Shown here: piece after piece, positions 4,001 through 18,765 of the stretch
Numbering within the stretch: the first letter of the stretch is position 1
How the letters are laid out: every line of letters starts with the position of its first letter
Virus record (IMG/VR): IMGVR_UViG_3300017991_000003
Span: 1-64,000 of that record
Direction: 5' to 3' (one strand)
Length of the DNA: 64,000 nt
DNA from: a virus
Translations under genes and position numbers: made by a program
Notes under the pieces: model-generated
Databases searched by the model: none
The model's input: the letters and a program-made list of their open reading frames with translations, nothing else
What the model was told of the DNA's origin: nothing

Positions 4001-6228
4001 ACATCACGATCCGCGTCAAAGACATCCTCACATCCGCCAATGTGCGCCTCGCTGATATCACGAACTTCACGGTTCCGATCAAGGAGACCGCGGACGAGGT
4101 CTTGGCCAAGACGCCTGATGGCGAGGGCTACTACGCCTGGGACCTGCGTGTCATCGGCATCGAGACGAGTGGTGTGTGGCCCACGACTGTCAACTTGATT
4201 GTTGATAATGGCAACGGTAACACGGATACCCTAACGCTGATCTCGGTGGAGTCAGCTCAGCCGTGCATCACCGAGATCACGGTCGATGACCCCACCCCGC
4301 AGGTTAGTGGTGGCGAGCCCTTCTGGAACTTCGAGGCTGGTATTGCGAACCAACGCACCCTCTACTTCCACACCACTGGGATCAACAACACCCTACCTGA
4401 CAAGCCGTCCTTCGTACCCACTACCGACGTGGGCCCGGGAACGCTGGCACCGGTGGGCAATGTCACACTGGTGTCGGGTGCTCCGCCCGCTGCGGCCATC
4501 TGGGCCCAGGACTTCCTGCGATCGTCCGACGTCGACGCGACGACTCAGATCTCGTTCCTCTCGAACACGGCGTCGAACGGAGACCCGAAGACTTGTACGC
4601 TCTCCTTCCCCGACTCCATCGAGTTCATCGAAGTACTAGGCCTTACCTATAGCGGCTCTGGCGGCGAGGGTGATCAGTCGGCAGGTACCGACTCCTCGAA
4701 ACTGGCTCGGGCCCAAGTGGTCTTCTCCAGCGCTCCCGAGGAGGGTCACTACTCCGAGTTCACCGTCTACGGCCGCTTCTCCCCGGCTGATGGTGCTGGT
4801 AGCGACATCACGGTCGACTTCTACGACGAGAACGGCAGCTCGGTGACCTCGAGTGTGACCGTGACCTCGGCGAGCTCGACCGCGGTCAGCGGCTACGTCA
4901 AGTTCGCCGACGACACCGCGCAGCGCATCCTGCGGGTGCGCGTGACCAACTCGACGCTATCGAAGACCACGACCGGCGTCCTCAACCGCACGGTTGTGAC
5001 GCACCCGGCGCCTCGCGTCCGCGGTGCGACCATGACCCCGCCCCACGAAGGGACGACCGGGGCGACGATCACGGTGGTGGGGTCTAACCTCACGCCCCCG
5101 GATCCGCCGACCGGCGCCTCGGCTCTCAGCTACGGCTACACCTTCTTCGATAGCGCGGCCAGCGCGGTCCTCTCGTCGGTGACCCTGGTCTCGGCCTCGA
5201 GCCGGCAGCTGGTGTTCACCGCAAACGTGGCTGCTAGTACGGCTGGCGAGACGATCGGGATCGCCATTGACTATCTGGGCGGCAACACCCACCGGGCCGG
5301 CAACCTCATCACGGTCCTCGAGGAAGAGGAAAACGACGCGTCTATCACCGACGTGCGCCTGTACGCCAAGGGCTCGGACCTCACGTCCACGACCCCGACA
5401 GCGCCGCAGACCTTCATCGACGGCACGGCATGGCTCATGGTCGTGGGCACCGGCCTCGGCGCCGCCAACGTAGCCTCCGACGGCACGGGCCTCTTCATTG
5501 AGGTGGTCGGCGAGCTCGATGACGGTAGCTCCTCGAACATCGCTGAGACGCCCCCGGGCCCCGGCACCACTGAGGCGCTGGCTAGCACGTCGATCTACCC
5601 CGGCACCTTCCGGGTCCAGAGCGACACGCAGCTCTTGATCGAGGTGCCCTGCACCCCGGCCTACTCCAACGCGCGTATCCGAGTGCACCTGGTCAAGCCG
5701 GCCACGCACCCTGATGGTGCGGTCGAGTGGGACCAGGCAGTGATCGACGACACGGGTGAAGGCACGGCGCGTAACCTGCCGAACGTGGGCTTGACGACTC
5801 GTTACGGGGCTGCGGCCCGTACCCCGAAGATCAACACTGACCCCACGGCCGGCGTCACGCACTACGACGTGGCCCGGGCCTTCCAGGCCAACAGCGGCGC
5901 CGGGACCGAGGGTGATACCTTCTCGGTGACGGTCCGTCTCGAGTCGGCGGTGACTACTGCGGACGCTCCGGCGGTCGTGGCAGTGGCTGACAGCACCTAC
6001 GGGGTCGAGTTCGAGGATGTGACGGTTGCCAAGACCGCTAATCCGCTCGAGATCCAGATCACGGTCACTGTCCCCACGCCTGGGGTGAACAACACCTACC
6101 CCCTGGCGGCGTTCGATTCGGCCACGCCGGCCGTTCCGGCCCTGCGCTTTGCTAACGGGCAGCCCATCGCGGCTGTGACCCTTGGCGCGAGTGATTGGGG
6201 CAGCATCTCCACTCAGGTTCCGTTCTAG
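1054..6228 (+). CDS. giant (1724 aa) putative tail fibre / adhesin-like structural protein
   Basis: Single uninterrupted ORF; Thr/Ser/Gly/Val/Asp-rich beta-type composition; no catalytic motif recognised; ATG at 1054 three nt after the preceding stop. Confidence 0.5.
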   Translation: MADQSYTTTSYITLKKPDSGSFQNIWDIPVNENWDTIAALFAGAVEVGHTHSGEDGQGPQLDHVDLLSVGSYTHAQIDAHIDSSPLHKNTQVQTISGDHLNSPSVTIVSNVSEIQFSNATVVDKGSGVVRVIALGTSTSPELYSKVQSAPVAWTDNFNWPHATSIGTYCWESVRTTDQHPEFLATGPAVGAPGTLARIELDGAVEPQGYALQHATCHVPHGTVQRVTLHVDRLEGPAGEAIDTTDDVTLTLDLLSATIGKSFDRPAAFGLSLVINKPAGSDTLDFALSLRPHGTDDNQEVIWTDFSGPLPSEYAGTFDQLPQAFLAGCHEFSLRRDPDEADAFWLQYYYNEGLVFRKYFSTLSADPTTALFASGLQDLVSNLGNWPTDPQPVYGRMGWGLGYNLVSGAQLICDVSCATVCSQDDVEVVTGPVTPYPEEVSPPGQAAASPCCPGYADFDGLAVGDAWDFDGPGLGLPEAQWTITGIIGDEYGTQNGPGFEVQNLSDGTYWPVFCAPPTLDTFTSNPISGYQVDQTVELTGISLPAGNDEHATLTITHGDSTWPLSWLTPGSSQFYNQGDTIAAGIITVSDLTWTAQPDGSSKLTVTYNTGPNLPWGRVLDFQVEPGYDVLLASDYTASWTAAVEVVAPPGIVTLPGFAGVVAYWDDVTDPANPEWVLADVLTPIPEGSWVYITVSAANWPMGATFWDEGNGFVGWTIQDTATGGVLPNGEYGINFLPSNGLSLLWSQFTPDTVPSDVGGTLPAFISGDEPPSSTAFTTLPPGYQLGTSALPSLGAVQMYAIIKLDDDYYTTQGGNTPVTLALRNPLTGSVMGTGDLPETLIPQVNPRAPVIDDASLSISTTTFTPGEEDITLSFKVSYLDAVDNTIELGLSSGWDATMPATVTIDGASPAPTMSLTDNGDGTVTVEVDNLKLGTSGAVRTYIKNSGISDTLPNQDSVAWGVVDTTTAPVIAQDSIAVYENAATDITIRVKDILTSANVRLADITNFTVPIKETADEVLAKTPDGEGYYAWDLRVIGIETSGVWPTTVNLIVDNGNGNTDTLTLISVESAQPCITEITVDDPTPQVSGGEPFWNFEAGIANQRTLYFHTTGINNTLPDKPSFVPTTDVGPGTLAPVGNVTLVSGAPPAAAIWAQDFLRSSDVDATTQISFLSNTASNGDPKTCTLSFPDSIEFIEVLGLTYSGSGGEGDQSAGTDSSKLARAQVVFSSAPEEGHYSEFTVYGRFSPADGAGSDITVDFYDENGSSVTSSVTVTSASSTAVSGYVKFADDTAQRILRVRVTNSTLSKTTTGVLNRTVVTHPAPRVRGATMTPPHEGTTGATITVVGSNLTPPDPPTGASALSYGYTFFDSAASAVLSSVTLVSASSRQLVFTANVAASTAGETIGIAIDYLGGNTHRAGNLITVLEEEENDASITDVRLYAKGSDLTSTTPTAPQTFIDGTAWLMVVGTGLGAANVASDGTGLFIEVVGELDDGSSSNIAETPPGPGTTEALASTSIYPGTFRVQSDTQLLIEVPCTPAYSNARIRVHLVKPATHPDGAVEWDQAVIDDTGEGTARNLPNVGLTTRYGAAARTPKINTDPTAGVTHYDVARAFQANSGAGTEGDTFSVTVRLESAVTTADAPAVVAVADSTYGVEFEDVTVAKTANPLEIQITVTVPTPGVNNTYPLAAFDSATPAVPALRFANGQPIAAVTLGASDWGSISTQVPF

Positions 6229-6268
6229 CCTATCCTTCTAACTGACGGCCAACAGGGCACTTAGCACG

Positions 6269-6811
6269 ATGACACTGGTTTCTAAGCTCCACAAGCTGGC
6301 CGCGGAGGTCATGTGGGACCCGAGTACTCGCCAGATGAGTGCTCAGCCCACTAAGCCCTCGGCGCAGCAAGCTCAGCAAGATGTGCAGGCGCAGACGGCG
6401 CAGGCTCAACAGGCGATGATGCCGGCGCAGGCTCCTCAGGGTCAGCCGGCTGCTCCTCAGATGCCGATGCAGATGCCGGACATGATGGATATGGAGAACC
6501 AACGGCTCGAGAAGCTGCTCCATAACGCCAAGCTCCGGCTAGAGATCGCCAACACGGAGCAGCAGATCCAGGACGCCAAGAACCCGGAGAAGGCCGACAA
6601 GCCTAAGGATGGGAAGGCGGAGCCGGCGAAGAAGCCCAAGGCCGAGGCTAAGCCCGAGGCCAAGGACAAGGCTGAGACCAAGCCCAAACCCAAGGGGGAG
6701 GACAAGGACCCCAAGACCAAGAATCCCGCAATCCGTGCGGCGGCGGATGCTACGGCAGCCAAGGCCAAGGCGGGGAAACCCCAGAAAGCTCCTGATAAGG
6801 AGAAGGCCTAA
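6269..6811 (+). CDS. low-complexity protein (Gln/Ala-rich N-half, Lys/Glu/Pro-rich KPEAK-type C-tail)
   Basis: 180 aa ORF; strongly biased composition; stop overlaps next start (TAATG at 6809..6813). Confidence 0.5.
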   Translation: MTLVSKLHKLAAEVMWDPSTRQMSAQPTKPSAQQAQQDVQAQTAQAQQAMMPAQAPQGQPAAPQMPMQMPDMMDMENQRLEKLLHNAKLRLEIANTEQQIQDAKNPEKADKPKDGKAEPAKKPKAEAKPEAKDKAETKPKPKGEDKDPKTKNPAIRAAADATAAKAKAGKPQKAPDKEKA

Positions 6812-8194: not shown

Positions 8195-8812
8195 GTGAAC
8201 CAGGGTGAGGCTCTCTTCCGATCCAAGGGCATCTGGCCCGGGGTCTACCAAGCGGTCCTGAACAAGAAGTTCGGGCCCGCCTGGCTTACGTGGGAGCCCG
8301 AGACCCTCTGGGCAGAGATCAAGCGCGTCTGGAAGGCTGAGCCGAGCGGCGAGATCCAGTCCAAGATCCTCGCTACCCGGATCGCGATGACTACCGACTT
8401 GTTCTACACGGACGCCCCGGCGTTCGAGAACATGATCCTGGCGGTCAACGATGTCGAGTATGACCCCGAGCTCCTCCAGCTGGCTACCCCGGAAGAGATC
8501 GTTTACGGTGTGCGCATGCTGTCGCCTTTGCGTGACGGCTCCTTCAACCGAGAAGTGACGGGCTACATCCGAGCCTGCTGCCGTCGGGCCGGCCTCCTGC
8601 GCTATCCCGACGACCTGCGCTTTGCTGAGCCGCAGTACCCAGACAACCTGGCGCGCATCGTCTCTCAGATCACCACTAAAGAAGCTGGCGACGACCTCGA
8701 CCCGCACGATACCGTAGCGGTGCAGTCCAACAATCTGTACCGGATCCAGGTGTACGTGAACGAGAAGCTGGCCCAGATGAGCACTGACGCTCTGACCCCC
8801 TCCACAGAATGA
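8195..8812 (+). CDS. hypothetical protein
   Basis: 205 aa ORF starting with GTG at 8195; stop overlaps next start. Confidence 0.55.
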   Translation: MNQGEALFRSKGIWPGVYQAVLNKKFGPAWLTWEPETLWAEIKRVWKAEPSGEIQSKILATRIAMTTDLFYTDAPAFENMILAVNDVEYDPELLQLATPEEIVYGVRMLSPLRDGSFNREVTGYIRACCRRAGLLRYPDDLRFAEPQYPDNLARIVSQITTKEAGDDLDPHDTVAVQSNNLYRIQVYVNEKLAQMSTDALTPSTE

Positions 8813-9339
8813 CCGAGACATGGAAAGAGGTCCCGGGCTACCCCGGGTACGAGGTCTCTGATCAGGGGCGGGTACGATCGTGGCGATCCAAACGCTACCC
8901 CGGGAAGCGTCGCAAGAAGCCGTGGGTTCTGCGCCCGTGGACGAACTCGGAGGGGTACCTCCGCGTCAGCCTTTGTAAGGACGGGAAGCGGGATACGCGG
9001 CTTGTGCATCGCGTAGTGCTCTCGGCGTTTGATCCTGACCCGCCCGCAGAGCGGTTCCAGGGAGAGCATCTAGACGGGAGCAAGGACAACAACAAGCTAG
9101 CTAACCTCCGTTGGTCGACTCCAAAGGAGAACAACGCTCGGAAGCATGAGCACGGTACTCAGCCGAAGCGCGGTGAGGAGTCACACCAAGCCCGTCTAAC
9201 CGAGGATCAGGTTCGAGAGATCCGTCGGCTGAAGGCGGAGGAGGGGTGGTCGTTCACCAAGCTGGGCAAGCACTTCGGTGTCAGCGATGTGGCTTGCTCC
9301 AAGATCGTTCGCCGTAAGACCTGGAGTCACGTCAAATGA
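8809..9339 (+). CDS. free-standing HNH homing endonuclease (NUMOD4-like N-terminus)
   Basis: N-terminal W-x-x-VPGYPGYEVSDQGRVRS motif; HNH core EHLDGSKDNNKLANLRWSTPKENN (about 9064..9129). Confidence 0.7.
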   Translation: MTETWKEVPGYPGYEVSDQGRVRSWRSKRYPGKRRKKPWVLRPWTNSEGYLRVSLCKDGKRDTRLVHRVVLSAFDPDPPAERFQGEHLDGSKDNNKLANLRWSTPKENNARKHEHGTQPKRGEESHQARLTEDQVREIRRLKAEEGWSFTKLGKHFGVSDVACSKIVRRKTWSHVK

Positions 9340-11231
9340 GCTATCAGTCAAGCCAGGGTGTGACAGGGCGCGGTGTCCGCAACGATCGGACCCTGAACAC
9401 GTACCCGCACCAGTTCTTCGATCCGAGCACGAGCTACATCCCTCACTCGGTGAAGGAGATGTACCGGTGGTGCCAGTTCCTGTACATGACGCACTCCGAG
9501 ATCGCCCCGGTGATCAACAAGAAGTGCGCGTACGTCATCACCAAGCTGATCTACGACTCCGACGTCGATGCGAACGTCAAGGCGTGGAAGAACCTGCTGG
9601 AAGAGAACATCAACATCCGGGAGATGGAGTACAAGCTCCTCCTGGACTTCGAGGTCTATGGCAACGCCTTCGTCTCGATCCACTACCCCTTCGAGCGCTA
9701 TCTGACCTGCCCTAACGGTGCGTGTAAGCAGCAGCATCCGGCGCGGAACATCGACTGGGAGTACCGAGATCACGAGTTCCGGGCCAAGTGCCCTGAGTGC
9801 GGTACTACGGGGGTGTTCAAGCCGCATGATCGCAAGATCCGCAACCGCCGGCGCATCAAGCTGATCCGCTGGAACCCCAAGTTTGTCAACATCCGCTACA
9901 ACCCGTTTACCGACGACTCGGTCTACATCTACCGGATCCCCAAATGGATTCAGAAGAAGCTGACCACGGTCAAGGAGAACAAGGAGCTGGTGTCGGGCAC
10001 TCCGCTGGTCATCCTCGAGGCGGTGCGTAAGAAGCGCGACGTCGAGCTCGACCGCGACAACATCTACCACTTCAAGAACGCCAGTATCAGTCTCGAGGAC
10101 GACGCCTTTGGCATGCCCCCCATGCTGGCGGTCTTCAAGGACGCCTGGTTGTTCCAGACGTTCCGCCGCGCGCAAGAGGCCATCGCCCTTGAGCACATCC
10201 TCCCGATGACTCTCCTGATCCCGGCGCCCACGGCAGCCGGCGTCTCCCCGCACATGAGCGTGGATCTCGGGGACTGGTCGGATCGGATGAACCTGATCAT
10301 CAAGAAGTGGCGTCGAGACCCCAACGCGCTCTTCACCATCCCGTTCCCGGCTCAGGTCGAGAACGTGCGGGGTGACGCCCAAGCGCTCGCTGTCCACAAC
10401 GACATGACCCAGATCCGCCAGCAGATCACCGGCGGCCTGGACGTGCCCCAGGAGTTCATCTACGGCGGCCTGAACTGGTCTGGCTCGTCGATCAGCCTAC
10501 GAGTGCTCGAGAACCTGTTCATCGGCCGAAAGGAGCAGCTGGATGCGTTCCTCCAGTGGGTGACCGACCGCCTTCAGCGGTTCTGCCTGCTACCGGAGAT
10601 GCACATCCGTCACCGTGACTTCAAGATGGCCGACGACGCTCAGCAGAAGCAGATCGCCCTCAGCCTGCGCCAGACCAACACGATCTCTGACCAGACCTCG
10701 ATCGAGGAGCTGGGCTTCGACTACGAGCGTGAGGAGGCGCGCAAGAGGCGCGAGGAAGAGGATCGACTGGCGGCCATGGAGCGCTCACAGCTTCGCCAGG
10801 CTGAGACGCAAGGCAAGGTCATGGTCCTCCAGGCGGAGTTCCAGGCCAACGCCGAGGCTGCCCAGATGCGCCAGCAGCAAGAGCAAGAGGCGAGGGCCAC
10901 CCAAGAGGGGTACGACACGACTCCTCCGGCGGAGCCAGGCATGGAGGGCGCTCCCGGCGAGCCCGGAGCTCCGATGCCGCCCCAAGGCCCCGGCGACCCT
11001 CAGCAGGCCCCTGACCAGACGGACCCGGTCATTCTCGACATGATGGCCAACCACCTGATCAAGGGGACGCCCCCGCATCTCCTGGAGCAGGAGCTCGCGG
11101 CGCTCGAGACCACGAACCCGGCACTGGCCAAGAAGGTCCGTGAGCGCATCAAGCTGATTCAGAAGCAGACGGCTGACTACAAGCCGCTGCCTGAGCAGAA
11201 ACCCCCGCGTCGCGAGTCGACCCCCGTCTGA
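9336..11231 (+). CDS. large virion-associated protein with internal Cys4 Zn-ribbon and C-terminal coiled-coil/acidic tail (possible portal; unresolved)
   Basis: 631 aa; CPNGAC...CPEC ribbon; C-terminal EEARKRREEEDRLAAMERSQLRQAE coiled-coil-like tail as often seen in portals; no direct portal signature recognised. Confidence 0.3.
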   Translation: MSYQSSQGVTGRGVRNDRTLNTYPHQFFDPSTSYIPHSVKEMYRWCQFLYMTHSEIAPVINKKCAYVITKLIYDSDVDANVKAWKNLLEENINIREMEYKLLLDFEVYGNAFVSIHYPFERYLTCPNGACKQQHPARNIDWEYRDHEFRAKCPECGTTGVFKPHDRKIRNRRRIKLIRWNPKFVNIRYNPFTDDSVYIYRIPKWIQKKLTTVKENKELVSGTPLVILEAVRKKRDVELDRDNIYHFKNASISLEDDAFGMPPMLAVFKDAWLFQTFRRAQEAIALEHILPMTLLIPAPTAAGVSPHMSVDLGDWSDRMNLIIKKWRRDPNALFTIPFPAQVENVRGDAQALAVHNDMTQIRQQITGGLDVPQEFIYGGLNWSGSSISLRVLENLFIGRKEQLDAFLQWVTDRLQRFCLLPEMHIRHRDFKMADDAQQKQIALSLRQTNTISDQTSIEELGFDYEREEARKRREEEDRLAAMERSQLRQAETQGKVMVLQAEFQANAEAAQMRQQQEQEARATQEGYDTTPPAEPGMEGAPGEPGAPMPPQGPGDPQQAPDQTDPVILDMMANHLIKGTPPHLLEQELAALETTNPALAKKVRERIKLIQKQTADYKPLPEQKPPRRESTPV

Positions 11232-11611
11232 TGGGCGCCAAGGGCAGTGGGCGTACACGCATCGAAGCGGACCTGATGCCTCGGGTCCGTGAGGGCTTTG
11301 CACGTCGTCTCCAAGACATGGGGACGATGAGCAAGCTCGGCGCCATCCTGCTCAAGCCCAACCAAGGGACACAGCGCCGCATCCGGCGTGAGACCCTCAA
11401 TATGGACACGGTCGGTGATCAGAAGCGTTGGCAGATGCTGCACAACGACTCCGAGCGCTATGAGGTCATCACGGCCAAGGACAGCAACACCAACCGCGGT
11501 AACTACTGCCACGTGACCTACATCGAGAAGGGTGACGACCTCCCCCTCGTCAAGAGCGAGAGCGAGCTCCGTTCTGAGGATAAAGAGCGCATCAAAGAGG
11601 AGGGCGGCTGA
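11231..11611 (+). CDS. hypothetical protein
   Basis: 126 aa ORF; ATGA-type overlaps at both ends. Confidence 0.5.
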   Translation: MGAKGSGRTRIEADLMPRVREGFARRLQDMGTMSKLGAILLKPNQGTQRRIRRETLNMDTVGDQKRWQMLHNDSERYEVITAKDSNTNRGNYCHVTYIEKGDDLPLVKSESELRSEDKERIKEEGG

Positions 11612-14600
11612 TGCTCGAAGGGCAGCACTTCCGGCAGTTCAAAGAGGCGCTGACTCGGTCGGAGGGCATCGTCAAGGGTATGTTCCCGATCGAGAGCCCC
11701 ACGAAGCGGCTCGAGGTCACGAACCTGCGTTGGACGAACGTAGGCCCGGACGTGGTCTTCGACGTCGAGAAGCAGAAGCAGGCCAAGCTGAAGGAGCAGT
11801 CGATCAACGCTGTTCTGGTCGGTGACGTCACGCTGCGTGAGCTCGGCTCCAAAGGGAAAGTCCTCGACCAGACCAAGCGCTACCCGATCCTCTCGGTGCC
11901 GCACCTGACGATGAACGCTGGCTACATCGTCAACGGCAAAGAGCAGCAGGTCGTCAACCAGTTCCGTCTGCGCCCTGGCATCTACACCCGGTTCACGGGG
12001 GACGACAACGTCGAGGCGTTCCTCAACACCACGGCGATCGGTACTTACAAGATCCTCCTCGACCGCTCTACCGGTGTGATCCGTATGCGGGTCGGCACGG
12101 CCGCACGCACCCCGATCTACTCGGTTCTGATCGCGGCTGGGCTGACTGATGCCGAGATCAAGACACTGCTGGGGACGGAGCTCTACGCGGAGAACAAGCG
12201 GGCGGCCAAGCCGGATCAGGACATCCCCAAGCTCCTGAAGCGGATGCGCCCGTACCTCAACCAGCCGGCGGAGCTGGGCGAGAAGTCAAAGCTCGTGCGT
12301 CAGTATCTGGAGTCGAAGCCCCTCGACCCCGCCGTGAACAAGGTCACGGTGGGCGAGGGTCTCGACCGCATCGACCGCAATGCCCTCGTGGCGGCGATCA
12401 AGAAGGTCCTCAAGCTGTCTAAGGGTGAGGCAGAGCCCGACGACACGGAGAGCCTTGCCTTCAAGTACATCCTCTCGATCGAGGACTTCGTGCCCGAGCG
12501 GCTCCAGAAGGCGGCCGACGGGCTCAAGTACAAGATCCAGGGCGACATGCGCCGCCGGGATGAGATCCGCTTGATCCTCCCGCCCAACCGCCTGAGCCAG
12601 CCGGTGGAGTCCTTTTTCACCACCTCGGAGTTCACGCGCTACTCGAGCCAGCACAACCCGCTGGACATGGCGGCGATCTCGAGCCTGACCACCACCATGG
12701 GTGATGGCGGGATCTCGAGCTCCCATGCGATCACCGACGAGGTGCGTACGATCCACCCGAGCCACTACGGTCTCCTGGATCCCATGCACACCCCGGAGGG
12801 GTGTTGCAGCGCTGACATGGAGGTCATGACGGATCAAGGCTGGGTTGCGTGGCCCGACGTAGACCGGACCACTCGGTTTGCTTGCCTAGACGCTGATCAA
12901 GGCCTTACCTATCACCGCGCCTCCGAGCTACACGTCTACGACCACGACGGGCCTCTCTACGGGTTCAAGTCGGAGACCCTGGAATACCTGCTGACCCCGA
13001 ATCATCGTCAGTGGGTCCGCCCGATTGAGGATCGATCGACGCGTGGGTATCGGTTTGAGACCGCGGAGGAGATGTACGGTAAACGTCGGCGAGTCCGCAT
13101 CGGCGGGCATTTGGCCTACGAGGGTCAGGCCGTCGATACCTGGCAGCTCCCTGAAATCCCTAAGGGAAGCAACTCGCAGAAGGTTTTCCCGGCCTTTGCT
13201 ATTGAGGACTGGGCTGAGTTCCTTGGCTGGTACCTGAGCGAAGGGAGCAGTCGGGGTTACGTGACTTCGATCACGCAGTATGAGGCTGCGAACCCGGAGA
13301 ATGTGGCTCAGATCGAGGCGCTGTTGACACGCATGCAGGTCGCGTGGAGCCGCAGCTCCAGGAGCTTCTCGATCCCAGGTAAGCAGCTAGTCAGCTACCT
13401 GCGTCAGTTCGGCCACTCCGATACCAAGTACATCCCTAAAGAGGCGTTCGACTTCCCGGCGGCGGCGCGTGAGGCCATGCTCGAGGCGCTAATGCTCGGA
13501 GACGGTCGCAAGGGCAAGGGCCGATGCTCTTGCTACTGCACTACATCTGAGCAGCTCGCCAAGGACGTGCAGCGCTTGGCCTTCGGCCTAGGGGTGTCGA
13601 GCAAAATCACCTTTGAGCCGGATACGCGGGAGGAGCACTACCGCGGGTGCTGGATCGTCCATCTCCACGCGCTCACTGAGCGTCAGGTGCTGCCACAAAT
13701 GCGCGCAGCAGGTAACGGCCAGTTCATCGAGGAATACCAAGGCAAGGTCTACTGCGCCACGGTTCCTGGTGGCCTGCTGTACATCCGTCGAGCCGGCAAG
13801 AGCGGTTTCTGGTCCGGCAATAGCAAGGTGGGCGTGACCGGTCACTTGGCCCTGGGCGCGCGCAAGAAGGGGCAGACCCTCTACGTCCCGGTCTATGACG
13901 CCAAGACGGGCAAGCGCGTGGAGAAGTCGGTTCAAGACCTGGACCAGGCCACCATCGCGTTCCCTGATCAGTACGACAACCTGCCCGACAAGCCGGGCGC
14001 GTCGGTCAAGGGCAAGCCCACGACCAAGCTGAAGAAGGTCAAGGCCCGTAGTCGTAACGAGTTCACGGAGGTGAGTCCGTCGGCTGTGGACTACATCTTC
14101 GTCAGCTCCGACAGCTTCTTCAGCTCGACCACGGCTGCGATTCCCTTCCTCCCCAACAACGACGCCAACCGCGTCCTGATGGGTGACAAGCATATCGAGC
14201 AGTCGGTGAACCTTGAGGACCCCGACGCGCCGATGGTCCAGCACCGCATCCGAGGCCGGGGCTATGAGGAGATGTTCGGGGAGCGCCTAGCCCCCCGGGC
14301 TATCGACCCCAAGACCGGCAAGCCCGTCGGCGGAGAGGTCCTCGAGGTCACCAAGACGCATATCACCATCCGGCCGGATGGCGGCGGCCGTCGACGCATC
14401 AAGGTCCCGATCCACGACCACTACCCGCTCAACAGCCGGACGTTCCTGCACGACGAGCCGGTGGTGAAGAAGGGTGACAAGGTCAAGCCTGGCCAGATCC
14501 TGGCCCGCAACAACTTCACCAAGGACGGAGACCTGGCGGTCGGCAAGAACCTCCGAGTCGCCTACACCGCGTACAAGGGCTACAACTTCGAGGACGGCAT

Positions 14601-17600
14601 CGTCATCTCGGAAGGGGCGGCTAAGAAGTTGACCTCGGTGCACAAGTACGAGGCCCGCGTTGAGAAGGGCAAGGGCATCACGGTCGGTGCAGACGCCTAC
14701 GCTGCCGCCTACCCCTCGGAGCTGGAGCATATCCGCGACCGTGCCCGGCGCTACGACGCTGTGGGTGTTATCAAGAAGGGCCAGCAGGTCGTCAAGGGCG
14801 ATGTCCTGATCCCCGCCATCCAGGAGGTCGAGGCGCATCCCGAGTACGACTACAAGCGTCTGCACCGCAGCGCCGGTCTCCGGCACATGGATATCAGCGA
14901 GACCTGGAACCACGACTTCCCTGGTGAGGTCGTAGACGTGGTCAAGACTCGGACATTCGTGAAGGTCGTGGTCAAGAGCAAGGAACCGATGCAGGTCGGT
15001 GACAAGCTGAGCTCGCGCCACGGCGCCAAGGGCATCGTCGTCAAGATCATCCCTGATGAGGAGATGTACAAGGACGAGGAAGGTGCGACGATCGATATCC
15101 TGCTCAACCCGGCGGGGGTGCCTGGTCGCGTCAACACGGGTCAGATGCTCGAAGCCGCGGCCGGCAAGCTGGCCCGTAAGACGGGCAAGAAGTACTACAC
15201 CGACAACTTCAACGAGAAGGGCAGCACGATCAAGAACCTCCGCAAGGAACTAGCGGGGGCCGGGATCTCCGATGAGGAGACGATCGTCGACCCGAAGACG
15301 GGGCACAAGCTCGAACGCGTCCTCGTCGGCGACACGCACATCTACAAACTGACCCACCAGGTCACGGGCAAGATGAAGGCCCGCGCCTCTGTGGGTGAGC
15401 CCTACTCGGTGGACGAGCAGCCCGTGAAGGGATCAGGGTCAGGTGCCCAGCGCATCGGCATCCTCGACACCTTCAGCCTGCTTTCGGGCGACGCCACGGC
15501 GTTCCTCGAGGATGCCTTCGGCCTCAAGAGCCAGAAGAACGACGAGTACTGGCGTGCCCTCCAGACTGGGCAAACACTGCCGCCTCCGAAGACCCCGTTC
15601 ATCGAGGAGAAGTTCGTGGCCATGCTCATTGGCGCGGGCATCGACCTCAAACAGAAAGGCAGTCGCATCGACGCGGGGCCGCTGACGGATGCTGAGGTTC
15701 TCTCAATGTCCAATGGCGCCATCGAGCGCCCGGTGGCGGTCAAGGCATCGAACCTCAAACCCGAGCGTGGCGGGCTCTTCGATCCCGGCAAGACCGGCGG
15801 TCCTGGCGGCAACTACTGGAACCATATCGATCTAGCCTCTGAGGTCGTGCACCCGCTGATGACCGACGCTGCGGCGTCCGTGGGCGGGTTCAAGACCAAG
15901 AAGGAGATGGACCAGATCATCCAGGGCCTGCTCGCGGTCACCGAGGAGGGCGAGGTCGTGGAGGCAGGCACCGCGGGTGCCGTGGCCGGTGGCTCGGGAG
16001 TGAAGCGCCGACTCGCTACGATCAACGTTCCGAGGGCCATCAAAGAGACCGAGTTGGTGGCGGCGACCGCCAAGGGCGCCAAGCTGGACAAGGCCCACAA
16101 ACGGCTGCGCTACCTGCGCTCGCTTCAAGCCAGTGGCCACTCGGCTGTTGATGCCTACATCAACAAGACCCTCCCGGTCATCCCCGCCAAGTTCCGTCAG
16201 ATCGCTCCGATGCCCGACGGCAGCCTGAGTGTGGCTGACGCCAACCACGGCTACCGAGAGGTCCTTCTCATCAACGAGAAGATCAAGCAGCTGAAGGCTC
16301 TCGGAGTCGACGAGCAGAACCTGCGAGCACTCAACAAGGCTCTGGCGGACGCTACGGCCGGCCTCGTAGGCACGGCGCCTCCGATCAGCCGAGGCAAGGT
16401 CTTCCGCGGCTTCGTCAGTCAGATCCACGGCCCGACGCCTAAGTCGGGTCTGGCGCAGTCGAAGCTCATGGGACGCAACCAAGACCTGAGCGGCCGGTCG
16501 ACTGTGATCCCCAACCCCAAGCTGGGGATGGACGAGGTCGGTATCCCGGCTGAGATCGCCTACAAGATCTACAAGCCCTTCGTCATCAAGCGTCTCGTCA
16601 CCGCCGGCCACAAGCCGCTAGATGCCCGCTCCATGGTCGAGCAGGGCCACCCGGCCGCCCGTCGTGCGCTCGAGGTGGAGGCTGAAGACCGCCCGGTGCT
16701 GATGAACCGCGCGCCCTCACTGCACAAGTTCAACATCCAGGCCCTCAAGCCCCGGGTGATCGACGGTAAGGCGGTCGAGGTCAACCCGCTCATCGTGAGC
16801 GGCTACAACATGGACTTCGACGGGGATACGGCCGGTCTACACGTTCCGGTCTCTGAAGAGGCCCGGCGCGAGGCTCGTGAGAAGCTGCTCCCGTCGCGCA
16901 ACCTGTTCAGCCCTCGGGAGGAGTTCGTGGTCCATGCCCCGACCAAGGAGACGATCCTCGGGGTGTACCTGATGACTACGCCCAAGGGACTTGCCTCCAA
17001 GTCGTTCTCCTCCGACCAGGAGATGGTCAAGGCATACCAGGCCAAGGAGATCAAGGTCAACGAAGCGGTGAAGGTCCAAGGCGCTGTGACCTGCGCCGGT
17101 CAGGCCATCTTCAACACGGCGCTTCCTATGGATCTGCGCGTGGGTCGTACGTCGGTGACCGGTCCGCGTTTGAGCCAGCTCCTGGTTCGCATCGGTCGGC
17201 AGTTGGGCCCCGACCGGGCCGCTCAAGTGATCTCGAAGATCAAGGACCTAGGCAACCACTACGTGACCGAGGTCGGGTTCTCCGTGAGTCTCCGGGACCT
17301 TGAGCTTGATACGAGCAAGCGGGATCAGATCGTCAACAAGCTCAAACGAGACGCCAAGACCAAGGGGTTCGATGAGGCGGCTGGCGAGGCGCTCGAAGAC
17401 ATCGCAGCGCTGCTGGCGTCGGCAGAGGATAACCGGTTCGTGGAGGCTGGCATCACATCCGGAGCCCTAGGCTCCAAAGGCATCCACCGGATGCTGGCGA
17501 GCACCGTGGCAGTGACGGATCACAAGGGCAAGACGGTCCCGATCCCGGTCGAGAAGTCCTATGCCGAGGGCCACGATCTAGGTACCTACTTGGGTACGAC

Positions 17601-18765
17601 CCCCGGCGCCCGGAAGGGCTTGATCGACAAAGGCCTGAGCGTGGCGGATACGGGCTACTTCAGCCGCATGCTCGTCAACAGCTCGATCGAGAACCAGGTG
17701 ACCGTCGCGGACTGCGGAACCAAGTCGGGCCAGGATCTGCCGCTCAACTCCCAGGAGCTCGCGCACCGCTACGGCGCCGAGGGCCGCTACCGCAACGTCT
17801 TGATCACCTCGGACATCGCCCGCCGCCTGCGCTCCCTAGGCCAGAAAACGGTCAAGGTCCGTAGCCCTCTGACTTGTCAGGCGCAGAAGGGCGTCTGTCA
17901 GAAGTGCTTCGGCCTACTCGAGGATGGCAAACCGCCTCGCATCGGTTATCACGTCGGTGCTCTGGCCGGCCAGACCCTGGGTGAGGTGGCTACCCAGCTG
18001 ACCCTGCGCAGCTTCCACACTGGTGGCGCTGTTGGTGGGCCCGACCTGGGTTTTGAGCGCATCCGTCAGATCATGGAGATGCCTCAAAGCATCCAAGGCA
18101 AAGCCATCCTGAGCGAGGCCACCGGCCAGGTGACGCGCATCGACACAGCGCCGGCGGGCGGTAGTTACGTCTACGTCGGCTCCGAGAAGCACTTCATCCC
18201 CAAGGAGCTGGGGGTAGCGGTGAGTCGAGGCCAGCGCGTGAAGGCGGGGGATCAGCTGAGCAAGTCGGGTGTGATCAAGCCTCAGGAGCTGCTAGATACG
18301 ACAGGGGACATCAATCGTGTCCGTACCCATCTGATCAACGAGCTGGATGCTAACTACAGAGCGGCCGGCAAGAAGGTCAACCGCCGGATCTTCGAGACGG
18401 TGGTCAAGCCTCTTACTGACCGTGCGACTGTGACGGACGTCGGAGACGCCGGCCGCCATTTCCCGGTACATGCCGGGGAGGTCATGCCTGTCAACCAGAT
18501 CGAGGAGATGAACCGCAAGCTCAAGCAGCGCCGTCTTCGCCCGATCCAGTTCGAGCCTATGATCATGGGTATCAAGCAGGCCCCGTTCCAGAGCGAGGAC
18601 TTCGTGGGAACGCTCACCCATGAGAAGCTCAAGCGGACCCTCACCGAGGCCCCTAGCCTGGGTAAAGCCACGGACCTTGTGCGCGGCCACCCGATGGCCC
18701 GCCTGGGTCTCACCAACCTCCGATCCATCGAAGCCATCAAACGACCTCAAGGGGTGAAGCGATGA
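11611..18765 (+). CDS. fused beta-beta' multisubunit DNA-dependent RNA polymerase, intein-containing
   Basis: Beta motifs: SQHNPLD...HPSHYG...HTPEG, IPFLPNNDANRVLMG, GDKLSSRHGAKGIVV (14998..15033), VNTGQMLE, GAQRIGILDTFSLL. Beta' motifs in the same frame: NHIDLASEVVHPL, NMDFDGD (about 16807..16827), PSLHKFNIQA. Beta' N-terminal Zn-ribbon appears absent. Confidence 0.85.
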   Translation: MLEGQHFRQFKEALTRSEGIVKGMFPIESPTKRLEVTNLRWTNVGPDVVFDVEKQKQAKLKEQSINAVLVGDVTLRELGSKGKVLDQTKRYPILSVPHLTMNAGYIVNGKEQQVVNQFRLRPGIYTRFTGDDNVEAFLNTTAIGTYKILLDRSTGVIRMRVGTAARTPIYSVLIAAGLTDAEIKTLLGTELYAENKRAAKPDQDIPKLLKRMRPYLNQPAELGEKSKLVRQYLESKPLDPAVNKVTVGEGLDRIDRNALVAAIKKVLKLSKGEAEPDDTESLAFKYILSIEDFVPERLQKAADGLKYKIQGDMRRRDEIRLILPPNRLSQPVESFFTTSEFTRYSSQHNPLDMAAISSLTTTMGDGGISSSHAITDEVRTIHPSHYGLLDPMHTPEGCCSADMEVMTDQGWVAWPDVDRTTRFACLDADQGLTYHRASELHVYDHDGPLYGFKSETLEYLLTPNHRQWVRPIEDRSTRGYRFETAEEMYGKRRRVRIGGHLAYEGQAVDTWQLPEIPKGSNSQKVFPAFAIEDWAEFLGWYLSEGSSRGYVTSITQYEAANPENVAQIEALLTRMQVAWSRSSRSFSIPGKQLVSYLRQFGHSDTKYIPKEAFDFPAAAREAMLEALMLGDGRKGKGRCSCYCTTSEQLAKDVQRLAFGLGVSSKITFEPDTREEHYRGCWIVHLHALTERQVLPQMRAAGNGQFIEEYQGKVYCATVPGGLLYIRRAGKSGFWSGNSKVGVTGHLALGARKKGQTLYVPVYDAKTGKRVEKSVQDLDQATIAFPDQYDNLPDKPGASVKGKPTTKLKKVKARSRNEFTEVSPSAVDYIFVSSDSFFSSTTAAIPFLPNNDANRVLMGDKHIEQSVNLEDPDAPMVQHRIRGRGYEEMFGERLAPRAIDPKTGKPVGGEVLEVTKTHITIRPDGGGRRRIKVPIHDHYPLNSRTFLHDEPVVKKGDKVKPGQILARNNFTKDGDLAVGKNLRVAYTAYKGYNFEDGIVISEGAAKKLTSVHKYEARVEKGKGITVGADAYAAAYPSELEHIRDRARRYDAVGVIKKGQQVVKGDVLIPAIQEVEAHPEYDYKRLHRSAGLRHMDISETWNHDFPGEVVDVVKTRTFVKVVVKSKEPMQVGDKLSSRHGAKGIVVKIIPDEEMYKDEEGATIDILLNPAGVPGRVNTGQMLEAAAGKLARKTGKKYYTDNFNEKGSTIKNLRKELAGAGISDEETIVDPKTGHKLERVLVGDTHIYKLTHQVTGKMKARASVGEPYSVDEQPVKGSGSGAQRIGILDTFSLLSGDATAFLEDAFGLKSQKNDEYWRALQTGQTLPPPKTPFIEEKFVAMLIGAGIDLKQKGSRIDAGPLTDAEVLSMSNGAIERPVAVKASNLKPERGGLFDPGKTGGPGGNYWNHIDLASEVVHPLMTDAAASVGGFKTKKEMDQIIQGLLAVTEEGEVVEAGTAGAVAGGSGVKRRLATINVPRAIKETELVAATAKGAKLDKAHKRLRYLRSLQASGHSAVDAYINKTLPVIPAKFRQIAPMPDGSLSVADANHGYREVLLINEKIKQLKALGVDEQNLRALNKALADATAGLVGTAPPISRGKVFRGFVSQIHGPTPKSGLAQSKLMGRNQDLSGRSTVIPNPKLGMDEVGIPAEIAYKIYKPFVIKRLVTAGHKPLDARSMVEQGHPAARRALEVEAEDRPVLMNRAPSLHKFNIQALKPRVIDGKAVEVNPLIVSGYNMDFDGDTAGLHVPVSEEARREAREKLLPSRNLFSPREEFVVHAPTKETILGVYLMTTPKGLASKSFSSDQEMVKAYQAKEIKVNEAVKVQGAVTCAGQAIFNTALPMDLRVGRTSVTGPRLSQLLVRIGRQLGPDRAAQVISKIKDLGNHYVTEVGFSVSLRDLELDTSKRDQIVNKLKRDAKTKGFDEAAGEALEDIAALLASAEDNRFVEAGITSGALGSKGIHRMLASTVAVTDHKGKTVPIPVEKSYAEGHDLGTYLGTTPGARKGLIDKGLSVADTGYFSRMLVNSSIENQVTVADCGTKSGQDLPLNSQELAHRYGAEGRYRNVLITSDIARRLRSLGQKTVKVRSPLTCQAQKGVCQKCFGLLEDGKPPRIGYHVGALAGQTLGEVATQLTLRSFHTGGAVGGPDLGFERIRQIMEMPQSIQGKAILSEATGQVTRIDTAPAGGSYVYVGSEKHFIPKELGVAVSRGQRVKAGDQLSKSGVIKPQELLDTTGDINRVRTHLINELDANYRAAGKKVNRRIFETVVKPLTDRATVTDVGDAGRHFPVHAGEVMPVNQIEEMNRKLKQRRLRPIQFEPMIMGIKQAPFQSEDFVGTLTHEKLKRTLTEAPSLGKATDLVRGHPMARLGLTNLRSIEAIKRPQGVKR
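12802..13821 (+). mobile_element. intein with LAGLIDADG homing-endonuclease domain inserted after the conserved TPEG of the beta module
   Basis: Begins CCSADMEVMTDQG (block A-like), TPNH (block B-like), two LAGLIDADG-like helices (LGWYLSEGS, EALMLGDGRKG), ends ...FWSGN followed by Ser; flanks (HTPEG / SKVGV...IPFLPNNDANR) restore beta-subunit colinearity. Boundaries within a few codons. Confidence 0.65.

What the first reader, a model, noticed from the sequence alone, without database searches (positions are those of the whole stretch)
12802..13821. LAGLIDADG intein inserted at the conserved TPEG site of the RNAP beta module
About 340 residues break beta-subunit colinearity exactly after HTPEG and carry intein block A (CCSADMEVMTDQG), a TPNH block-B-like motif, two LAGLIDADG-like helices, and a terminal Asn followed by Ser. 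Removing them restores the beta alignment. An intein in an essential polymerase active-site region implies obligatory protein splicing and is a selfish element in its own right.
Basis: partly seen in the sequence, partly recalled or inferred. Interest (0 to 1): 0.75.

Follow-up and report, generated by a model that had tools for sequence, protein, structure and literature searches.

The report
Homing intein in phage RNA polymerase
A 340-residue self-splicing, mobile protein insert (an intein with its own homing endonuclease) sits in the catalytic cleft region of a phage's single-chain RNA polymerase; it is real, but it is one ordinary member of a large intein family that has colonised phage RNA polymerases.

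Summary
Window 12802-13821 encodes 340 residues in frame within a 2384-aa fused beta-beta' RNA polymerase ORF (11611-18765) of a phage. Deleting these 1020 nt makes the gene gaplessly colinear with a 79%-identical intein-free relative. The insert starts with Cys and has block B TPNH. It has two LAGLIDADG motifs with their acidic residues. It ends in Gly-Asn and is followed by Ser. An AlphaFold model (pLDDT 92.8) matches solved bifunctional inteins (TliVMA, PI-SceI, PI-PkoII; Foldseek E down to 4e-18). Homologous inteins sit in unrelated phage proteins (DNA methylase, terminase, ThyX, RNR). They also sit at the same TPE(G) site of many other phage RNA polymerases, and most close relatives of this polymerase lack any intein there. 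The splicing residues are nearly invariant across 204 family members. The penultimate residue is Gly rather than the usual His, and block F position 4 is Cys. Both are known variants. I file it as a new member of a known kind: no paper I searched describes inteins in bacteriophage RNA polymerases, but metagenomes hold hundreds. Splicing and endonuclease activity are inferred, not shown.

The parts
11611..12801 (+). N-extein: first 397 residues of the fused beta-beta' RNA polymerase, ending ...HPSHYGLLDPMHTPEG (Rpb2_3 / fork region).
   Evidence: ORF list and translation. Pfam RNA_pol_Rpb2_3 at residues 346-397. Colinear with intein-free L009.
12802..13821 (+). The intein: 340 residues, Cys1 to Asn340. 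A bifunctional splicing plus LAGLIDADG homing-endonuclease element.
12802..12840 (+). Block A (CCSADMEVMTDQG). Cys1 (12802-12804) is the predicted first nucleophile.
   Evidence: Cys1 is invariant in alignment A1. It is Cys in 245 of 246 family N-junctions.
12976..13017 (+). Block B (TLEYLLTPNHRQWV). Thr65 is B:7 (12994-12996) and His68 is B:10 (13003-13005).
   Evidence: T-P-x-H is invariant in A1. Among 204 full-length family inteins, His is present in 204 and Thr in 200.
13219..13245 (+). LAGLIDADG motif 1 (FLGWYLSEG). The catalytic acidic residue is Glu147 (13240-13242).
   Evidence: Aligned to the PI-PkoII and VMA intein endonuclease domains. It lies on model helix 139-152. The position is E or D in 195 of 204.
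13480..13506 (+). LAGLIDADG motif 2 (LEALMLGDG). The catalytic acidic residue is Asp234 (13501-13503).
   Evidence: Pfam LAGLIDADG_3 covers intein residues 225-284. It lies on model helix 225-239. The position is D or E in 192 of 204.
13744..13791 (+). Block F (KVYCATVPGGLLYIRR). Cys318 is F:4 (13753-13755). F:13 is Tyr, not His.
   Evidence: V-Y-C-x-T-V is invariant in A1. F:4 is Cys in 195 of 204.
13801..13824 (+). Block G (SGFWSGN) plus the +1 residue. Gly339 is penultimate, Asn340 is terminal (13819-13821), and Ser+1 (13822-13824) is the first C-extein residue.
   Evidence: G-N is invariant and +1 Ser nearly invariant in A1. Across 236 family C-junctions, 'GN' occurs in 220, and +1 is S in 206, T in 17 and C in 12.
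13822..18765 (+). C-extein: the rest of beta (GDKLSSRHGAKG motif, Rpb2_6) fused to beta' (NMDFDGD motif, Rpb1 domains 1-5), through the stop codon.
   Evidence: Pfam and NCBIfam hits. Translation.

Best explanation
Window 12802-13821 is a bona fide, probably active, class-1-type intein with an embedded LAGLIDADG homing endonuclease. It is inserted between the Gly of the universally conserved beta-subunit motif TPEG and the next residue, in a phage-encoded single-chain (fused beta-beta') RNA polymerase.

Predicted mechanism. The polymerase is translated as a 2384-aa precursor.
1. Cys1 makes an N-S acyl shift at the Gly(-1)-Cys1 bond, assisted by block B Thr65 and His68.
2. Ser+1 takes over the N-extein by transesterification.
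3. Asn340 cyclises and releases the intein.
4. An O-N shift leaves a normal peptide bond (...HTPEG-SKVGV...), giving a 2044-aa polymerase.

At the DNA level, the two-motif LAGLIDADG domain is predicted to cut intein-less alleles of this gene during co-infection, so that repair copies the intein in (homing).

Shown here: the boundaries, the fold, family membership, conservation of the catalytic residues, and the sporadic distribution.
Inferred: splicing competence, endonuclease activity, and that the unspliced polymerase is inactive.
For: (1) Exact in-frame insertion. Deleting the 1020 nt gives gapless colinearity with intein-free L009, which is 79% identical. All 14 other IMG/VR relatives, P0033 and Arash gp206 are uninterrupted at TPE(G/S).

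(2) All splicing blocks are present. They are invariant in a 28-sequence alignment spanning five host contexts: C1, T-P-x-H, V-Y-C-x-T-V, G-N, and +1 S/T. In 204 full-length family members, His B:10 is present in 204, Thr B:7 in 200, Cys F:4 in 195 and Asn in 197.

(3) The AF2 model has pLDDT 92.8 and pTM 0.91. Its best PDB matches are bifunctional inteins (TliVMA, PhoVMA, PI-SceI, PI-PkoII, PI-PfuI; E 4e-18 to 1e-9), then I-DmoI and mini-inteins.

(4) The same element occurs full-length in unrelated proteins. These are mycobacteriophage DNA methyltransferase and nucleotidyltransferase, Gordonia phage GMA6 TerL, Corynebacterium phage P1201 ThyX (annotated 'contains hypothetical intein'), Salmonella phage SP3 RNR, and Lak-A1.

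(5) Homologous inteins sit at or within one residue of this site in other phage RNA polymerases, and the inteins are more similar to each other than their hosts are. Inteins share 35-42% identity against 24-33% for the flanking, highly conserved extein region. P0140 carries a 56%-identical intein at TPEG|C. Degenerate (P0029) and mini (P0040) forms exist at the neighbouring PE|S position.

(6) GC3 is 0.735 in the intein against 0.844 +/- 0.033 in the extein, which suggests a foreign origin.

(7) A penultimate Gly is compatible with fast splicing. The mycobacteriophage Bethlehem RDF intein, which has a penultimate Gly, splices to completion, and mutating it to His slows splicing (PMC5050341).

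(8) The LAGLIDADG acidic residues Glu147 and Asp234 are retained.
Against: No experiment shows splicing or DNA cleavage. Pfam and NCBIfam detect only the endonuclease part; no HINT or intein-splicing profile reaches E <= 0.1. Both histidines that usually assist Asn cyclisation are absent: G:6 is Gly and F:13 is Tyr. The chemistry of the C-terminal step is therefore not explained by the textbook scheme. The invariant Cys at F:4 leaves the identity of the first nucleophile formally open. The nearest intein-free alleles have Asp/Glu/Gln at the +1 position, so the spliced product carries a Ser there whose effect on the polymerase is unknown.
Confidence: 0.9

Rival explanations
1. It is an intein, but it splices by a class-3-like or hybrid route. 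The invariant block F Cys318, rather than (or in relay with) Cys1, attacks the N-terminal junction, forming a block F branched thioester before transfer to Ser+1.
For: Cys at F:4 is invariant in A1 and present in 195 of 204 family members. G:5 is Ser/Thr/Cys, and the penultimate His is missing. Class 3 inteins are proposed to have a phage origin, and WCT inteins that begin with Ser1 or Cys1 are known (PMC2807308; PMC4031507).
Against: Cys1 is as conserved as Cys F:4 (245 of 246). The class 3 Trp at B:12 is absent: B:12 is Met/Leu/Val in the family and Gln here, and Trp sits at B:13. Cys is the second most common residue at F:4 among inteins in general, not only in class 3 (PMC4031507). Kelley et al. 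treat mycobacteriophage inteins that begin with Cys1 and lack the WCT triplet as class 1 (PMC5050341).
Confidence: 0.07
2. It is a decayed or domesticated intein-derived insertion that is no longer excised and stays in the mature polymerase as a lineage-specific domain.
For: Bacterial beta subunits tolerate large lineage-specific insertions. No HINT profile hit in Pfam. The penultimate His is absent.
Against: Every catalytic splicing residue is retained. The 79%-identical relative lacks the insert entirely. The site lies inside the TPEG motif, which matches E. coli beta residues up to 565/566 in solved RNAP structures. That is a buried, invariant cleft element, not a surface loop where lineage insertions occur. 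The model is a compact, independent HINT-plus-endonuclease unit whose N and C termini lie on strands of the same HINT domain.
Confidence: 0.02
3. The splicing domain is active but the homing endonuclease is dead, so the element is now only vertically inherited, at a late stage of the homing cycle.
For: Degenerate and mini derivatives exist at this site in relatives (P0029, P0031, P0040). This shows that endonuclease loss happens in this family.
Against: Both LAGLIDADG motifs keep their acidic residues and glycines, and the block D K-x-I-P-like motif (TKYIP) is intact. The endonuclease domain is modelled with high confidence. Low GC3 and absence from the closest relative point to a recent arrival.
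Confidence: 0.25

Closest known systems
Actinobacteriophage class 1 LAGLIDADG inteins lacking the penultimate His. Examples: mycobacteriophage DNMT inteins (ShiLan gp65, Lilac, Bobi), the NT intein (Cali / LRRHood gp3), Gordonia phage GMA6 TerL, Corynebacterium phage P1201 ThyX. Described in Kelley et al. 2016, PMC5050341.
   Same: Detectable full-length sequence homology (25-27% identity over residues 1-340; E to 3e-15). Same block signature: Cys1, T-x-N-H, [VI]-[YW]-C at block F, x-G-N, then S/T at +1. Same two-motif LAGLIDADG domain. Phage-borne.
   Different: A different host protein and insertion site (RNA polymerase beta, TPEG). Only about 25% identical. The RNAP-resident inteins form their own much closer group (35-58% identity).
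Inteins of the second-largest RNA polymerase subunit in eukaryotic nuclei (RPB2, RPA2, RPC2), green-algal chloroplast RpoB and giant viruses (Goodwin et al. 2006, PMC1635734; Green et al. 2018, PMC5784728).
   Same: Same kind of host protein. Insertion at highly conserved cleft-facing motifs. Two of the six eukaryotic sites lie in the 'fork' domain, to which the TPEG motif belongs. LAGLIDADG type. The argument that excision must precede assembly is the same.
   Different: None of them appeared among the sequence relatives of this intein. I could not establish whether any known site is exactly TPEG|x, because the figures are not held. Those hosts are eukaryotes, plastids and NCLDV, not bacteriophages.
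Structurally characterised bifunctional inteins: TliVMA and PhoVMA (7qsu, 7qss, 7qst), PI-SceI (1vde, 1ef0), PI-PkoII (2cw7), PI-PfuI (1dq3).
   Same: Same two-domain architecture: a HINT splicing domain interrupted by a LAGLIDADG endonuclease. Foldseek E 4e-18 to 1e-9, TM about 0.5-0.6. Sequence-level match of the endonuclease domain.
   Different: 10-14% sequence identity. Those have His-Asn C-termini and Asp at F:4. This one has Gly-Asn and Cys at F:4.
Class 3 inteins (MP-Be DnaB, MchDnaB1, AceL NrdHF; Tori et al. 2010, PMC2807308).
   Same: Cys at block F:4, a Ser/Thr-type residue at G:5, and phage association.
   Different: This one has the N-terminal Cys that class 3 lacks. It has no Trp at B:12.

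Membership tests
Intein (protein-splicing element, class 1) | In-frame insertion in a conserved site of a host protein, absent from orthologues, whose removal restores the host sequence. | tested here: met
   Gapless 837/837-nt colinearity with intein-free L009 after deletion. Fifteen or more intein-free relatives.
Intein (protein-splicing element, class 1) | N-terminal nucleophile (Cys1 or Ser1), block A. | tested here: met
   Cys1 at 12802-12804. Invariant in A1. Cys in 245 of 246 family junctions.
Intein (protein-splicing element, class 1) | Block B Thr(B:7)-x-x-His(B:10). | tested here: met
   T65-P-N-H68. Among 204 family members, His is present in 204 and Thr in 200.
Intein (protein-splicing element, class 1) | C-terminal Asn (G:7) followed by a Cys/Ser/Thr at +1. 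| tested here: met
   Asn340 then Ser+1. Family: N in 197 of 204. Among 236 C-junctions, +1 is S in 206, T in 17 and C in 12.
Intein (protein-splicing element, class 1) | Penultimate His (G:6). Common but not obligatory. | tested here: not met
   Gly339. Gly occurs in 191 of 204 family members. This is a known variant: phage class 1 inteins with Gly at G:6 splice efficiently (PMC5050341).
Intein (protein-splicing element, class 1) | HINT fold with N and C termini brought together. | tested here: met
   AF2 model with pLDDT 92.8. Foldseek matches to whole inteins and to mini-inteins and Hedgehog HINT domains.
Intein (protein-splicing element, class 1) | Match to curated intein splicing-domain profiles (Pfam or NCBIfam Hint / Intein_splicing). 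| tested here: not met
   Only LAGLIDADG_3 and the endonuclease parts of intein-containing DnaB, GyrA and Tes models matched at E <= 0.1. A profile of the family does reach the N-terminal splicing region of the TliVMA intein (profile positions 164-461 against chain residues 15-306, E 6e-10).
Intein (protein-splicing element, class 1) | Demonstrated autocatalytic excision and extein ligation. | not testable with these tools
   Needs expression followed by western blot or mass spectrometry.
LAGLIDADG homing endonuclease (single-chain, two-motif) | Two LAGLIDADG helices, each ending in an acidic residue followed by Gly, in an alpha-beta-beta-alpha-beta-beta-alpha pseudo-dimer. | tested here: met
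   FLGWYLSEG (Glu147) and LEALMLGDG (Asp234). Pfam LAGLIDADG_3 scores 23.5 bits against a gathering score of 22.5. Fold matches to the PI-SceI-type endonuclease domain and to I-DmoI.
LAGLIDADG homing endonuclease (single-chain, two-motif) | Site-specific cleavage of the intein-less allele. | not testable with these tools
   Indirect support only: sporadic presence among relatives and occurrence at many conserved sites in many hosts.
Class 3 intein | No N-terminal Cys/Ser nucleophile. | tested here: not met
   Cys1 is present and conserved.
Class 3 intein | WCT triplet: Trp B:12, Cys F:4, Thr G:5. | tested here: not met
   B:12 is Gln here (Met/Leu/Val in the family) and Trp sits at B:13. F:4 is Cys, which is met. 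G:5 is Ser.

The most novel reading that the evidence does not exclude
This phage RNAP intein family combines an invariant Cys1, an invariant block F:4 Cys and a Ser at +1, and it lacks both assisting histidines (G:6 is Gly, F:13 is Tyr). It may use a mechanism that is neither textbook class 1 nor class 3. One option is a Cys1 to Cys318 thioester relay. Another is a Cys1-Cys318 disulfide that gates splicing by redox state. The same family occupies more than 20 conserved sites of phage multisubunit-type RNA polymerases, with up to three inteins per polypeptide. Splicing could therefore act as a timing or quality-control switch for a polymerase that, by homology with Salmonella phage Arash gp206, is probably packaged into virions.
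Probability: 0.1. Interest if true: 0.55.

Novelty: new member of a known kind. Interest (0 to 1): 0.3.

Why it matters
For annotation: the mature polymerase of this phage is 2044 aa, not 2384. Any structural or phylogenetic use of the gene must remove residues 398-737.

For intein biology: this adds a bacteriophage multisubunit-type RNA polymerase to the list of intein hosts. None of my literature searches found a description of such a case. The exhaustive search shows this is not a one-off. Among the best 147 cluster representatives, 85 carry a family intein at TPE or TPEG, 36 at the GDKL motif, and 84 carry two or three inteins. This makes phage RNA polymerase a dense intein habitat, comparable to terminase or ribonucleotide reductase.

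For applications: compact Cys1/Ser+1 inteins with Gly-Asn termini, and natural 145-aa mini versions such as the one in P0040, are potential protein-engineering parts. Their endonucleases recognise a universally conserved RNAP motif.

None of this changes current understanding of how inteins work.

Tried and rejected
(1) Megablast of the whole RNAP gene against 50,697 phage records gave no match, so the phage has no close sequenced relative. Protein-level searches were needed.

(2) Pfam and NCBIfam gave no HINT or intein-splicing hit, only the endonuclease domain. Had I stopped there, the 'no intein signature' refutation might have seemed half met. Homologues, a family profile and the structure model settled it.

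(3) The word-indexed protein search returned only 32 relatives and suggested a small family confined to short split-beta fragments. The exhaustive phmmer search corrected this to thousands.

(4) Class 3 intein hypothesis. It was prompted by the VYC motif. I first mis-counted the Trp as B:12. Recounting (His+3 is B:13) and the family statistics removed the WCT match, and the literature shows Cys at F:4 is common.

(5) Second intein in the window: tblastn of the intein against all six frames found only itself.

(6) Co-conversion footprint: identity to L009 is not clearly depressed next to the junction compared with elsewhere in the alignment (0.62-0.65 in the windows at the junction, against 0.50-0.87 overall). 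Nothing can be concluded at 79% protein identity.

(7) I wanted the Cys1 / Cys318 / His68 / Asn340 distances from the AF2 model, but the coordinates are not exposed to scripts.

(8) I could not determine whether any published RPB2 or RpoB intein site equals TPEG|x, because the figures are not held. Tori & Perler 2011 (PMC3133030) is not held.
Full report
**1. What is in the sequence**

The window is a GC-rich (62.8%) phage-like region. It encodes a large terminase (24211-26040, phrog_675, E 3e-64). It encodes a portal (9336-11231; 27% identity to the Salmonella phage Arash portal over 461 residues, E 5e-74). It encodes a RecA-like protein and a ResIII helicase. Most other ORFs have no family assignment.

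Directly downstream of the portal and a 126-aa ORF lies a 7155-nt ORF, 11611-18765 on the + strand, of 2384 aa. It carries RNA polymerase beta domains (Rpb2_3, Rpb2_6) followed by beta' domains (Rpb1_1, _2, _3, _5). It matches NCBIfam fused beta/beta' models at E 1e-156. It is therefore a single-chain multisubunit-type RNA polymerase. The beta motif GDKLSSRHGAKG and the beta' motif NMDFDGD are intact.

**2. Checking the observation**

The translation reads ...HPSHYGLLDPMHTPEG | CCSADMEVMTDQGW...LLTPNHRQW...FLGWYLSEGS...LEALMLGDG...KVYCATVPGGLLYIRRAGKSGFWSGN | SKVGVTGHLALGA.... The interrupted motif is the universal beta motif: bacterial RpoB reads HYGRICPIETPEG-PNIGL (P0045).

The strongest test of the boundaries is the intein-free relative L009, from a 72-kb IMG/VR contig with 79% protein identity. 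After deleting the 1020 nt, the two genes align 837/837 nt without any gap across the junction. The junction reads TPEG-DKVGVSGHL in L009 and TPEG-SKVGVTGHL in the window. At the junction itself the only amino-acid change is Asp (GAC) to Ser (AGC) at +1.

**3. Is it an intein?**

Five independent lines agree.

(a) Motifs and their conservation.
- A 28-sequence alignment of relatives from five different insertion contexts has these invariant columns within the splicing blocks: Cys1, Thr-Pro-x-His (block B), Val-Tyr-Cys-x-Thr-Val (block F) and Gly-Asn. A few other columns are also invariant. Ser/Thr at +1 and the two LAGLIDADG acidic residues are at least 90% conserved.
- I built an HMM of the family and applied it to the best 147 representatives from the exhaustive search. 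Cys1 is present at 245 of 246 N-junctions. 'GN' ends 220 of 236 C-junctions. The +1 residue is Ser 206, Thr 17, Cys 12.
- In 204 full-length members, His B:10 is present in 204, Thr B:7 in 200, Cys F:4 in 195 and Asn in 197.

(b) Fold. An AlphaFold2 model built on that alignment has mean pLDDT 92.8 and pTM 0.91. Its best PDB matches are the solved bifunctional inteins TliVMA, PhoVMA, PI-SceI, PI-PkoII and PI-PfuI (Foldseek E 4e-18 to 1e-9). These are followed by the LAGLIDADG enzyme I-DmoI and then by mini-inteins and Hedgehog HINT domains.

(c) Sequence.
- Pfam LAGLIDADG_3 is above its gathering score.
- phmmer against the PDB finds PI-PkoII and the VMA inteins.
- A family profile reaches the N-terminal splicing region of the TliVMA intein.

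(d) Mobility between hosts. The whole 340 residues align, at 25-27% identity, to inserts in several unrelated phage proteins. All share the Cys1 / T-x-N-H / [YW]-C / G-N / S-or-T signature.
- Mycobacteriophage DNA methyltransferases (ShiLan, Lilac, Bobi).
- Mycobacteriophage nucleotidyltransferase (LRRHood / Cali gp3).
- Gordonia phage GMA6 terminase.
- Corynebacterium phage P1201 thymidylate synthase, whose record says 'contains hypothetical intein'.
- Salmonella phage SP3 ribonucleotide reductase.
- A Lak megaphage ORF.

(e) Sporadic distribution in the host family.
- Of the nearest polymerase relatives, the following are uninterrupted: P0033 (53% identity), P0034-P0039, P0041, Arash gp206 and fourteen IMG/VR loci.
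- P0044 and P0140 carry homologous inteins at TPEG|C (41% and 56% identity to this one).
- P0040 carries a 145-aa mini-intein at SPE|C.
- P0029 carries one with a decayed endonuclease.
- These are the successive stages expected of the homing cycle.
- The intein's GC3 (0.735) is lower than any same-sized window of the extein (0.844 +/- 0.033, minimum 0.776). This is consistent with a foreign, not yet ameliorated origin.

**4. The negative result**

Curated profile libraries did not recognise the splicing domain itself at E <= 0.1. This reflects divergence of this phage family from the models' seed sequences. It does not reflect absence of the domain, given (a), (b) and (c) above.

**5. Where exactly it sits**

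A family profile aligns the N-extein of the split-beta relatives to E. coli beta chains up to residue 565. That residue is the Glu of T563-P564-E565-G566. The residue numbering is from my own knowledge of the rifampicin cluster II region and is consistent with that alignment. The window's intein therefore lies between the equivalents of G566 and P567.

The family uses two registers one codon apart.
- Lineages whose native motif is TPES (Arash-like, and the short split-beta fragments) carry the intein at PE|S, so the native Ser serves as +1. P0010 shows the uninterrupted EGPESEKIG.
- Lineages whose native motif is TPEG-[D/E/Q/P/G] (this phage, P0044, P0140, P0146, P0147, P0151) carry it at PEG|S. 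There the invariant Gly is kept and the less conserved next residue has become Ser.
- Among the 147 representatives, 77 proteins use TPE| and 8 use TPEG|.

**6. Mechanism**

The best-supported reading is the canonical class 1 pathway:
1. Cys1 N-S acyl shift, assisted by Thr65 and His68.
2. Transesterification to Ser+1.
3. Asn340 cyclisation.
4. O-N shift.

Two features depart from the textbook consensus.
- The penultimate residue is Gly, and block F:13 is Tyr, so neither of the histidines that usually assist Asn cyclisation is present.
- Block F:4 is Cys rather than Asp.

Both departures are family-wide and both have precedent.
- Kelley et al. found that mycobacteriophage class 1 inteins often have Gly, Lys or Ser at the penultimate position. 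They showed that the Bethlehem RDF intein (penultimate Gly) splices to completion and that G316H slows it (PMC5050341).

I considered class 3 membership because of the F:4 Cys. The intein has the N-terminal Cys that class 3 lacks, and it has no Trp at B:12. B:12 is Gln here and Met/Leu/Val in the family, and the Trp is at B:13. I therefore do not file it as class 3. A hybrid route is not excluded (about 7%).

The endonuclease retains both LAGLIDADG motifs (Glu147, Asp234) and a block D-like TKYIP. This, together with the recent-arrival signs, makes it likely but unproven that it is still active.

That the polymerase is inactive until spliced is an inference. The site is inside an invariant cleft motif next to the RNA-DNA hybrid. 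Goodwin et al. made the same argument for the fork-domain RPB2 and RPC2 inteins (PMC1635734).

**7. How common it is**

The word-indexed search gave 32 relatives. Most were 550-590-aa proteins consisting of a roughly 200-240-aa Rpb2_3 fragment plus the intein. They are free-standing genes in phage-like contigs.

The exhaustive search changed the picture. It found 7352 cluster representatives at E <= 1e-3, 4237 at E <= 1e-10 and 380 at E <= 1e-30. The best 150 are mostly 1.8-3.7-kaa polymerases with the intein near residue 400.

In the 147 of these not already fetched, the family occupies many conserved motifs, and 67 proteins carry two family inteins and 17 carry three:
- TPE| / TPEG|: 85 proteins.
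- GDKL|S, the GDK..RHGNKG motif: 36 proteins.
- H.AE|S: 11 proteins.
- NPLG..SR|T/S: 10 proteins.
- G.GGIP|S, ..IFG|S, EEMQ|S and more than 20 singleton sites.

The window's polymerase has only this one. The finding is thus a typical member of a large, mostly undescribed population.

**8. Comparison with the literature**

Inteins in the second-largest RNAP subunit are known in three settings (PMC5784728; PMC1635734; PMC2997540):
- Eukaryotic nuclei: 21 in the 2018 census.
- Green-algal chloroplast RpoB: 12.
- Giant viruses: 9.

Phage inteins are well documented in terminases, helicases, ribonucleotide reductases, methylases, polymerases and gyrase. My four searches that combined intein terms with phage, jumbo-phage or rpoB/RPB2 terms found no description of an intein in a bacteriophage RNA polymerase. 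The library is incomplete, so this is absence of evidence only.

I therefore rate it a new member of a known kind.

**9. Verdict**

Interest is modest (0.3). A specialist would not be surprised by one more LAGLIDADG intein in a conserved nucleic-acid enzyme of a phage. Two wider points are mildly interesting: the density of this family in phage RNA polymerases, and the unusual host enzyme. That enzyme is a 2044-aa single-chain beta-beta' polymerase encoded next to the portal. Its Arash homologue gp206 is the most abundantly detected protein in virion proteomics (PMC10585845).

Noticed in passing
window 11611-18765 (+), with 9336-11231 (+): The host gene is unusual in itself. It is a single-polypeptide fused beta-beta' RNA polymerase (2044 aa after splicing) in a phage whose relatives sit on 60-72-kb contigs. 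It is encoded directly after the portal gene, the same order as in Salmonella phage Arash (27% portal identity, E 5e-74). In Arash the homologue gp206 is the most abundantly detected protein in virion mass spectrometry, so this is probably a virion-packaged RNAP.
   Followed up: partly
window 8809-9339 (+): A free-standing HNH homing endonuclease gene (Pfam NUMOD4 3.9e-11 plus HNH_3 9.7e-7) lies immediately upstream of the portal gene. It is a second selfish element within 3.5 kb of the intein.
   Followed up: no
L002 (Vibrio phage D181, OZ196140.1) 5446-6357; also D148: The homologous RNAP gene of Vibrio phages D181 and D148 is split by a group I intron (Rfam RF00028, 100.7 bits, E 1.5e-26) followed by an annotated homing endonuclease ORF. 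The split falls at the motif corresponding to window extein residues about 507-517 (IPFLPNNDANR). Sister phage D69 is uninterrupted. Different kinds of selfish element target this polymerase.
   Followed up: yes
P0136, P0141, P0143, P0161, P0174 and others: Many metagenomic phage RNAPs of 2-3.7 kaa carry two or three inteins of the same family at different conserved motifs (TPE|S, GDKL|S, NPLGxxSR|T, xxIFG|S, HxAE|S and others). Among the 147 top representatives, 67 have two and 17 have three. Some also hold extra endonuclease-only fragments.
   Followed up: partly
window 13822-13824; L009 and L010-L023 at the TPEG site: All intein-free relatives have Asp, Glu, Gln, Pro or Gly after TPEG, never Ser. 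The window has Ser (AGC against GAC in L009). In TPES-type lineages the homologous intein sits one codon upstream (PE|S). The family therefore occupies two registers one codon apart, in each case with a Ser at +1.
   Followed up: partly
P0029, P0031, P0040, P0032: Degenerate (endonuclease partly deleted; 244 and 140 aa) and natural mini-intein (about 145 aa in P0040; 235 aa in P0032, in an unrelated PF25608 protein) derivatives of the same family. P0029, P0031 and P0040 sit at the PE|S position of RNAP genes (one codon upstream of the window's PEG|S), which illustrates endonuclease decay.
   Followed up: no
L013 (IMGVR_UViG_3300018080_007183), whole 6830-nt locus: This locus is 100% identical to window 9822-16651. 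The same intein-bearing phage therefore appears in IMG/VR as an 8.6-kb fragment.
   Followed up: no
window 12805-12807: The intein begins Cys-Cys. The second Cys is peculiar to this copy; relatives have Phe, His or Tyr at position 2. Its significance is unknown.
   Followed up: no
window 1054-6228 (+) and 38957-42214 (+): Two very large ORFs (1724 aa and 1085 aa) have no Pfam or PHROG match at all.
   Followed up: no
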